DNA of 64,000 nucleotides from the human T2T-CHM13v2.0 reference genome, Homo sapiens: NCBI RefSeq assembly GCF_009914755.1, contig NC_060938.1, one strand, 5' to 3'. Position numbers and translations under genes: made by a program. Shown here one piece after another: positions 29,357 to 30,267 of this stretch. Every line of letters begins with the position of its first letter. The first letter of the stretch is position 1. The notes beneath the pieces are model-generated. The model worked only from the letters and a program-made list of their open reading frames with translations. It searched no databases and was not told where the DNA came from.

Positions 29357-30267
29357 ACATAGTGATGTTTCGATGTATGTAATGTATAGTGATCAAATCA
29401 AGGTAACTAGCACAGCCATCATCTCAAACATTTATCATTTTTTTGTGTTGGGAACATTTGATATCCTCCTACCTAGTTGAACTATATATTATCGTTAATG
29501 ATAGTCATCCTATGGTGGCATAAAACACTAGAACTTATTCCTTTTTTTTTTTTTTGAGACGGAGTCTCGTTCTGTTGCCCAGGCTGGAGTGCAGTGGTGC
29601 AATCTCAGCTCACTGCAACCTCTGCCTACCGGGTTCAAGTGATTCTCTTGCCTCAGCCTCCCAAGTAGCTGGGACTACAGGCACGCGCCACCACACCCGG
29701 CTAATTTTATATTTTTAGTAAAGTTAGAGTTTCACCATATTGGCCAGGCTGGTCTCAAACTCCTGACCTTGTAATCCACCCGTCTCTGCCTCCTAAAGTG
29801 CTGGGATTACAGGCATGAGCCACCGCACCTGGCCAGGAACTTATTCCTTTCATCTAGCTATAATTTTGCATCCTTTAACAAAAATTTATTTCAACACTGT
29901 CTTTACTAAAAATATAAAATTAGCCGGGTGTGGTGGCATGTGCCTGTAGTCCCAGCTACTTGGGAGGCTGAGGCAAGAGAATCACTTGAACCCGGTAGGC
30001 GGAGGTTGCAGTGAGCCGAGATTGCACCACTGCACTCCAGCCTGGGCAACAGAACGAGACTCTGTCTCAAAAAAAAAAAAAAGGAATAAGTTCTAGTGTT
30101 TTATGCCACCATAGGATGACTATCATTAACGATAATATATAGTTCAACTAGGTAGGAGGATATCAAATGTTCCCAACACAAAAAAATGATAAATGTTTGA
30201 GATGATGGCTGTGCTAGTTACCTTGATTTGATCACTATACATTACATATATCGAAACATCACTATGT
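29357..30267. repeat. Inverted duplication: 367-bp arms 29357-29723 and 29901-30267 with a 177-bp spacer
   Basis: The arms are reverse complements with about 6 substitutions. Confidence 0.95.

What the first reader, a model, noticed from the sequence alone, without database searches (positions are those of the whole stretch)
29357..30267. Near-perfect 367-bp fold-back inverted duplication spanning an L1/Alu junction
Seen: 29357-29723 (185 bp of L1 3'UTR, a T14 tail and the Alu right arm) reappears reverse-complemented at 29901-30267. It has the same A14 tail and about 6 substitutions, mostly CpG-type transitions. The copy crosses an L1-Alu boundary, starts mid-Alu and has no TSD, so it is not an independent retrotransposition. 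The host L1 text stops at ~29881 and resumes at ~30270, with short filler at the junction. Inference: a replication template-switch or fold-back repair event younger than the Alu. About 98% identity with a 177-nt loop can form a hairpin or cruciform, or a long dsRNA if transcribed. Repeat annotation would hide it as ordinary Alu/L1 pieces.
Basis: partly seen in the sequence, partly recalled or inferred. Interest (0 to 1): 0.8.

Follow-up and report, generated by a model that had tools for sequence, protein, structure and literature searches.

The report
Small local inverted duplication in L1
A 375-base piece of old repeat DNA (part L1, part Alu) was copied backwards into a spot 161 bases away a few million years ago, giving a near-perfect hairpin-forming repeat of a kind already catalogued in human genomes.

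Summary
Arms 29357-29731 and 29893-30267 are 375 nt, ungapped, with 9 mismatches. It is the only inverted pair in the window above 87%. In the whole assembly the next-best match is 82%, or 86% for the L1 part alone.

The left arm is the source: colinear L1 3' end plus a full Alu with its own target-site duplication. The right arm is a copy dropped into the same L1. It has no target-site duplication, no terminal poly-A and no filler, and loses at most 2 nt of L1.

Five of six core differences are CpG transitions, split between the arms. This argues for real evolutionary age, about human-chimp-level divergence, and against an assembly artefact.

Best reading: a DNA-level inverted duplicative insertion, by replication or repair template switch with return. 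End-joining capture of a copied fragment is not excluded.

The class is known. Small inverted duplications (median 284 bp) are the commonest inversion-type variant outside mobile-element insertions in long-read population data. About 2,000 inverted repeats over 300 bp and over 96% paired exist in the genome, 88% of them intergenic.

Interest is low to moderate.

The parts
29295..29541 (-). 3' end of an old, degenerate L1 in minus orientation. Its 3' terminus lies near 29295-29316, and 29357-29541 forms the L1 part of the source arm.
   Evidence: Aligns to L1 copies elsewhere in the genome: 6 of 6 loci and 14 of 14. 2938 first-look candidates genome-wide.
29542..29834 (-). Full-length Alu (both monomers) inserted in the L1 3' end. 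T14 tail at 29542-29555. Flanked by its own target-site duplication at about 29530-29541 and 29835-29849.
   Evidence: Sequence read. Rfam sub-threshold SRP-like hits mark the right monomer at 29554-29701 (-) and the left monomer at 29719-29833 (-).
29357..29731 (+). Left arm, the source segment: 185 nt of L1 3' end, the T14 run, the Alu right monomer, the A-rich linker and the first bases of the left monomer.
   Evidence: Colinear with other L1 copies and with an Alu that has intact target-site duplications.
29732..29892 (.). Spacer or loop, 161 nt: the rest of the Alu left monomer, the Alu target-site duplication, and L1 text up to the insertion point (A/T-rich just before 29892).
29893..30267 (+). 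Right arm, the inserted reverse-complement copy (375 nt, possibly extending to 30269). It holds an Alu right monomer only, an internal A14 run at 30069-30082, then L1 3' end sequence.
   Evidence: Rfam finds only a right-monomer hit at 29923-30070 (+). 38 of 40 unrelated Alus begin to match at 29893. 37 of 38 unrelated L1 copies match 1-2 nt past 30267.
30268..32620 (-). The host L1 continues towards its 5' side. It carries later Alu insertions and degenerate ORF2 reverse-transcriptase fragments at 32107-32620.
   Evidence: Flank 30268-30400 aligns next to flank 29842-29892 in 7 of 14 and 3 of 6 other L1 copies. RVT_1 fragments at E 2.6e-4 and 1.1e-3, below Pfam's cut-off, in 2 of 7 ORF pieces scanned.

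Best explanation
This is a real, several-million-year-old inverted duplicative insertion made at the DNA level. A 375-377 nt stretch of the plus strand was copied as its reverse complement into a single break in the same L1, 161 nt downstream. The stretch comprises 185 nt of L1 3' end, the Alu's T14 tail, the Alu right monomer and the linker. The most likely route is a template switch during replication or break repair. The 3' end growing rightwards left its template at 29892. It copied the nearby plus strand (its own nascent strand or the sister strand) backwards from 29731 to 29357. It then returned to the original template at the next L1 base. In the four-point notation this is order 3-2-1-4. 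Shown: the anatomy, the direction of copying, the clean junctions and the age signal. Inferred: the polymerase switch itself. The product has no evident function. It is a hairpin- or cruciform-capable repeat in untranscribed-looking intergenic DNA, and would be a 367-375 bp duplex if ever transcribed.
For: The arms are 375 nt, ungapped, with 9 mismatches. The pair is unique in the window and in the genome. The two junction sequences occur once each in the assembly. The left arm sits in colinear L1 with a complete Alu that has its own target-site duplication. The right arm splits L1 text whose two sides lie 1-28 nt apart in 10 other L1 copies (3 of 6, 7 of 14). The copy has an Alu right monomer only, an internal rather than terminal A14 run, and no flanking direct repeat. 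The plus-strand order of the switch points, 29357, 29731, 29892 and 30268, equals the 3-2-1-4 pattern, which Walker et al. 2021 name as one of the two majority patterns giving single inverted repeats (PMC7954356, passages). The same paper links event initiation to poly(dA:dT) tracts, and the break lies at the end of an A/T-rich run. Schloissnig et al. 2025 report 277-311 polymorphic inverted duplications with a median of 284 bp and attribute them to a replicative origin (PMC12350158, passages). Five of six core differences are CpG transitions, three derived in each arm by comparison with 6 outgroup loci. This fits independent germline decay after one copying event.
Against: The junctions show 0 nt (left) and 0-2 nt (right) of possible microhomology, whereas most catalogued inverted duplications have 1-15 bp. 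Blunt joins fit end-joining equally well. The copied tract is about 40 times the expected length of short-range template switches (10 nt) and lies outside their +/-100 nt search space. Three differences cluster in the last 9 nt beside the loop (P = 3.4e-4). At two of these positions the derived state is in the source, not the copy; at the third both arms differ from all 6 outgroups. Error-prone copying would predict the opposite. No pre-insertion allele or outgroup species could be examined.
Confidence: 0.6

Rival explanations
1. End-joining capture. A double-strand break at 29892/29893 was sealed by non-homologous end joining with a free 375-377 nt DNA fragment ligated in inverted orientation. 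The fragment would be a piece of the sister chromatid or homologue, or a displaced repair or replication product.
For: The insertion is clean, with 0-2 nt microhomology at both joins, no filler and at most 2 nt of target lost. The clustered changes at the loop-side end of the source, and a possible 1-nt loss at its other end, could be scars of breaks in the source duplex.
Against: It needs three breaks or a free copy, yet the source is retained intact. The population catalogue attributes this class to replicative events. The source-end 'scars' rest on few bases, and the 2-nt match at the right junction has a 1 in 16 chance expectation.
Confidence: 0.22
2. RNA-templated insertion. A cDNA fragment of a local minus-strand transcript (the L1/Alu read-through) was captured at a break.
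For: The segment is sense-oriented Alu plus L1 3' end on the minus strand, so such a transcript could exist. This is inference only; no call supports it.
Against: There is no terminal poly-A, no target-site duplication, and no start or end at any element boundary. A T4 run lies 17 nt past the Alu tail on the transcribed strand. From general knowledge, that would stop a Pol III Alu transcript long before the 185 nt of L1 that were copied.
Confidence: 0.05
3. Assembly artefact: a fold-back chimera in long reads built into the assembly.
For: Fold-back chimeric reads are known from general knowledge. Raw reads could not be checked.
Against: The arms differ at 9 positions in a mutational pattern typical of germline decay: 5 of 6 core changes are CpG transitions, shared between the arms. 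The L1 resumes precisely after the copy. An artefact would give identical arms or random errors.
Confidence: 0.02

Closest known systems
Small polymorphic inverted duplications in long-read human SV catalogues (Schloissnig et al. 2025, PMC12350158; passages read)
   Same: An insertion that is a reverse-complement copy of nearby sequence, of a few hundred bp (their median is 284 bp), with no long breakpoint homology and the source retained.
   Different: This one looks old: 6-9 arm differences, about human-chimp-level divergence. Whether it is still polymorphic is unknown. Its microhomology is 0-2 nt, against mostly 1-15 bp in the catalogue.
Short-range template-switch mutations, four-point model (Walker et al. 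2021, PMC7954356; passages read)
   Same: The geometry is the same (3-2-1-4), it creates a single inverted repeat, and the start site is A/T-rich.
   Different: The copied tract is 375 nt against an expected ~10 nt. The template lies 161 nt away, outside their +/-100 nt search space, so that method would not have detected it.
Long, highly paired dsRNA-forming inverted repeats (>300 bp, >96%): dsRNAscan preprint PMC11838218 (section 10 read); Barak et al. 2020 PMC7006430 (abstract and passages)
   Same: It meets both thresholds (367-375 bp, 97.6-98.4%) and is intergenic, like 88% of the 2,018 reported.
   Different: Most of the reported ones form between two inverted LINE elements. This one is a local duplication that crosses an L1/Alu boundary.
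Closely spaced inverted Alu pairs that destabilise chromosomes (Lobachev et al. 2000, seen only as cited in PMC10164571)
   Same: Inverted Alu-containing arms of high identity. Most human inverted Alu pairs are only 80-90% identical.
   Different: The spacer is 161 nt. Going from 12 to 100 bp lowered repeat-induced recombination 300-fold in double-stranded DNA. It may still interact if the region becomes single-stranded.
Large fold-back inverted duplications (Hermetz et al. 2014, PMC3907307; search listing only)
   Same: An inverted duplication with a short single-copy spacer between the arms.
   Different: Those are large duplications, described through a dicentric-chromosome intermediate and breakage-fusion-bridge cycles. 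Here the strand returned after 375 nt and the chromosome stayed colinear.

Membership tests
Local inverted duplication (insertion-type structural variant) | The inserted segment is the reverse complement of nearby sequence, and the source is retained. | tested here: met
   375 nt, 9 mismatches, source 161 nt away.
Local inverted duplication (insertion-type structural variant) | The segment is an insertion relative to the ancestral state. | tested here: met
   Tested by proxy only. The two L1 flanks are 1-28 nt apart in 10 paralogous L1 copies. No orthologous empty site was available.
Local inverted duplication (insertion-type structural variant) | Breakpoint microhomology of 1-15 bp in most members. 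| tested here: inconclusive
   0 nt at the left junction and 0-2 nt at the right. The ancestral target sequence is unknown.
Short-range template-switch mutation (four-point model) | A reverse-complement 2->3 fragment from nearby, with 3-2-1-4 or 1-4-3-2 order. | tested here: met
   Points at 29357, 29731, 29892 and 30268. The pattern is named in PMC7954356.
Short-range template-switch mutation (four-point model) | Short tract (expected ~10 nt) with the template within about 100 nt. | tested here: not met
   375 nt, 161 nt away, against the parameters read.
Retrotransposed (target-primed) insertion | Target-site duplication flanking the insert. | tested here: not met
   No direct repeat at 29892/29893 versus 30267-30269.
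Retrotransposed (target-primed) insertion | 3'-terminal poly-A and an element-defined end. | tested here: not met
   The A14 run is internal (30069-30082). The copy starts inside the Alu and ends inside the L1 3' end.
Long highly paired dsRNA-forming inverted repeat (>300 bp, >96%) | Stem over 300 bp with over 96% paired. | tested here: met
   366 of 375 complementary. The RNA fold pairs the whole stem at -741.7 kcal/mol, z -66.9.
Long highly paired dsRNA-forming inverted repeat (>300 bp, >96%) | Both arms present on one transcript. | not testable with these tools
   No annotated gene covers 29357-30267 (the hub's table). No expression data were available.
Fragile closely spaced inverted Alu pair / quasi-palindrome | Spacer of about 12-20 bp or less. 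| tested here: not met
   The spacer is 161 nt.

The most novel reading that the evidence does not exclude
The changes clustered at both ends of the SOURCE segment may be scars of the event itself. They are 3 differences within 9 nt at 29723-31, with the source derived at two of the three positions, and a possible 1-nt loss at 29356/7. If so, the source duplex was broken or resynthesised at exactly the borders of the copied piece. That would imply a three-break cut, copy and paste with gap repair rather than passive copying by a wandering polymerase, and it would be a mechanistic signature that could be sought across the whole class of small inverted duplications.
Probability: 0.1. Interest if true: 0.45.

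Novelty: new member of a known kind. Interest (0 to 1): 0.25.

Why it matters
It is a clean, datable example of a mutation class lying between 10-nt template switches and megabase fold-back duplications. Repeat annotation hides that class, because each piece looks like ordinary Alu or L1. It also adds one more intergenic inverted repeat that passes the length and pairing thresholds used for MDA5-grade duplex RNA. It lies in the SIX1-SIX4 interval, about 16 kb beyond the 3' end of SIX4. Nothing here suggests a function or a disease link, and the class is already catalogued.

Tried and rejected
- Independent Alu or L1 insertions were rejected. The identity crosses the L1/Alu boundary and is 98% against 82-86% or less for unrelated copies.
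- 'Filler' at the left junction was rejected. 29882-29892 aligns to L1 family text, and 29893-29900 is Alu-derived (38 of 40 unrelated Alus start matching at 29893).
- I looked for a nearby template (>=7-mer, either strand, 28800-30900) for the derived cluster at 29724-29728 in the source. None was found.
- Other loci with an L1/Alu junction like the arm (L003-L008, 76-82%) are independent Alu insertions at or near the same L1 site, not paralogues of this event.
- A whole-frame Pfam scan of the L1 failed because of stop codons. Stop-free pieces gave only weak RVT_1 hits.
- Lobachev 2000 is not held.
- A literature search for SIX1/SIX4 plus 'inverted repeat' returned only Fusarium papers among the 8 listed of 16. 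I found no printed mention of this locus, on the basis only.

Full report
OBSERVATION

The inverted repeat exists as described and is slightly longer than reported. The repeat finder gives arms 29357-29731 and 29893-30267: 375 nt, 98% complementary, 161 nt apart. A local alignment of the left arm against the reverse complement of the right arm gives one ungapped block of 375 columns with 9 mismatches.

Five are at CpG bases and one is a non-CpG transition at 29375. The homopolymer runs are both 14 long: T14 at 29542 and A14 at 30069.

IS IT MORE THAN CHANCE OR ORDINARY REPEAT SIMILARITY?

- One search found 31 inverted pairs of at least 150 nt within 5 kb in the whole 64-kb window and listed 25. 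This pair is 98%; the other 24 listed are 76-87%.
- In the whole assembly the 375-nt arm finds itself (100%), its partner (98%) and then nothing above 82% (40 of 5420 first-look candidates scored, 42 matches).
- The 185-nt L1 part alone finds its partner at 99% and the next-best L1 copy at 86% (40 of 2938 scored).
It is therefore not met.

ANATOMY

An old L1 lies in minus orientation, with its 3' end near 29295-29316 and its body running rightwards. Evidence:
- 29357-29541 aligns to L1 copies in 14 of 14 loci fetched for the purpose and 6 of 6 earlier loci.
- Two of 7 stop-free minus-strand ORF pieces (32107-32358 and 32324-32620) hit Pfam RVT_1 colinearly, at E 1.1e-3 and 2.6e-4. Both are below the curated cut-off, as expected for fragments.

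A full Alu in minus orientation sits at 29542-29834. Its T14 tail comes first, and it has its own target-site duplication at about 29530-41 and 29835-49. Rfam's SRP model gives sub-threshold hits for its right monomer (29554-29701) and left monomer (29719-29833).

The right arm carries only a right-monomer hit, at 29923-30070 on the plus strand.

WHICH ARM IS THE COPY?

The left arm is colinear with the L1 family and contains the Alu with its duplicated target, so it is the source. The right arm splits L1 text.
- In 7 of 14 L1 copies and 3 of 6, the stretches matching 29842-29892 and 30268-30400 lie 1-28 nt apart. In the window they are about 375 nt further apart.
- In the remaining loci the L1 is truncated or interrupted by other insertions, and they say nothing either way.

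JUNCTIONS

Left junction. An 86-nt query across it occurs once in the genome. 38 of the 40 other matches (unrelated Alus, plus the source arm) begin at query position 44, which is 29893. So the Alu-derived copy begins exactly at 29893. The 11 bases before it (29882-29892) align to L1 family text, differing mostly by C-to-T changes. There is therefore no filler.

Right junction. The 86-nt query is again unique. The present source stops matching at 30267, but 37 of 38 unrelated L1 copies match one or two bases further. The source lacks one base that the L1 family has just there. The right junction is therefore ambiguous within 30267-30269.

Both junctions together:
- No direct repeat flanks the insert.
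- At most 2 nt of L1 are lost or gained.
- Possible microhomology is 0 nt on the left and 0-2 nt on the right.

AGE AND AUTHENTICITY

I polarised the differences with 6 outgroup loci, L003-L008. These are independent L1+Alu junctions at or near the same L1 site, 76-82% identical to the arm. In the core, three changes are derived in the source (29375, 29607, 29623) and three in the copy (29561, 29685, 29686). Position 29561 is split 3:3 among the outgroups and is assigned by the CpG-decay argument.

For rates I used recalled values from the 2005 chimpanzee genome paper, not checked here: 0.92% per non-CpG base and 15.2% per CpG base for human-chimpanzee divergence. With these:
- The core gives 0.96 times that divergence (Poisson 95% interval 0.35-2.1).
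- All 375 nt give 1.43 times (0.65-2.7).

Gene conversion between the arms would make this an underestimate. A pattern of CpG transitions shared between the two arms is what germline decay produces, not what a fold-back read artefact would give.

AN UNEXPLAINED DETAIL

Three differences (29724, 29725, 29728) fall in the last 9 nt beside the loop. Given the core rate, P = 3.4e-4.
- At 29724 and 29725 the copy keeps the Alu family state (6 of 6 and 5 of 6 outgroups) and the source is derived.
- At 29728 both arms differ from all 6 outgroups.
- No nearby 7-mer or longer could have templated the source's version.
- Error-prone copying would put such changes in the copy, so this is not explained by the simple model.

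STRUCTURE-FORMING POTENTIAL

| Fold of 29340-30285 | Free energy (kcal/mol) | 20 shuffles (mean +/- SD) | z |
|---|---|---|---|
| Single-stranded DNA | -472.9 | -99.7 +/- 6.3 | -58.9 |
| Plus-strand RNA | -741.7 | -239.3 +/- 7.5 | -66.9 |

In plus-strand RNA four of the six core mismatches become G-U pairs and two are A-C.

MECHANISM

A retro-origin fails on every defining feature: no target-site duplication, no terminal poly-A, and ends inside both elements.

The geometry equals the 3-2-1-4 order of the four-point template-switch model. That order is one of the two majority patterns producing single inverted repeats in great-ape genomes (PMC7954356, passages). However, the tract is about 40 times their expected length and lies beyond their search space.

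Population long-read data show this size class is common (PMC12350158, passages):
- 311 insertions were reclassified as inverted duplications.
- 277 of them lie outside mobile-element events, with a median length of 284 bp.
- Most have 1-15 bp of microhomology and are attributed to a replicative origin.

I therefore favour a template switch with return (0.6). End-joining capture of a copied fragment is the main rival (0.22), because the joins are nearly blunt.

CONSEQUENCES

With a 161-nt spacer the repeat is outside the range that yeast work found strongly recombinogenic. Raising the spacer from 12 to 100 bp lowered recombination 300-fold in double-stranded DNA, although distant repeats can still interact in long single-stranded regions (PMC10164571, passages).

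It passes the thresholds of over 300 bp and over 96% pairing used for MDA5-grade duplexes. One preprint counts 2,018 such repeats in the genome, 88% of them intergenic and most unedited (PMC11838218, section 10). Such duplexes are depleted from transcripts (PMC7006430, abstract and passages).

No annotated transcript covers this site. Expression, editing and polymorphism could not be tested here.

VERDICT

Interest 0.25.

Noticed in passing
L003:1664-1958 and L005 (reverse strand, about 1676-1969), compared with window 29542-29834: Two unrelated L1 copies (contigs 23 and 5) carry an Alu in the same orientation at the same L1 3'-end position as the window's Alu. L004 and L008 carry one about 15-20 nt further along. 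This suggests a preferred endonuclease site in this L1 3' end, or simply selection by the search for look-alikes.
   Followed up: partly
window 28925-29225: A plus-strand Alu with a long A tail, flanked by a perfect 17-nt target-site duplication at 28908-28924 and 29226-29242, just left of the L1 3' end.
   Followed up: no
window 29723-29731 and 29356-29357: Both borders of the source segment carry changes absent from the copy and from the repeat families: 3 substitutions within 9 nt and a possible 1-nt loss. The cause is unknown.
   Followed up: partly
window about 31740-31800: A dinucleotide (CA/TG) microsatellite inside the degenerate L1 ORF2 region, seen as THTH.../CVCV... runs in the ORF translations.
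   Followed up: no
window 29054-29105, 29652-29703, 29921-29972, 29576-29635, 29989-30048 and 29782-29974: Rfam matches, far below gathering scores, to Alu-derived miRNA families (mir-1268, mir-3135) in every Alu copy. Hairpin-type families (MIR530, mir-1972, MIR7723) also match across the loop/arm border on one or both strands. These are most likely by-products of Alu sequence and of the inverted repeat.
   Followed up: no
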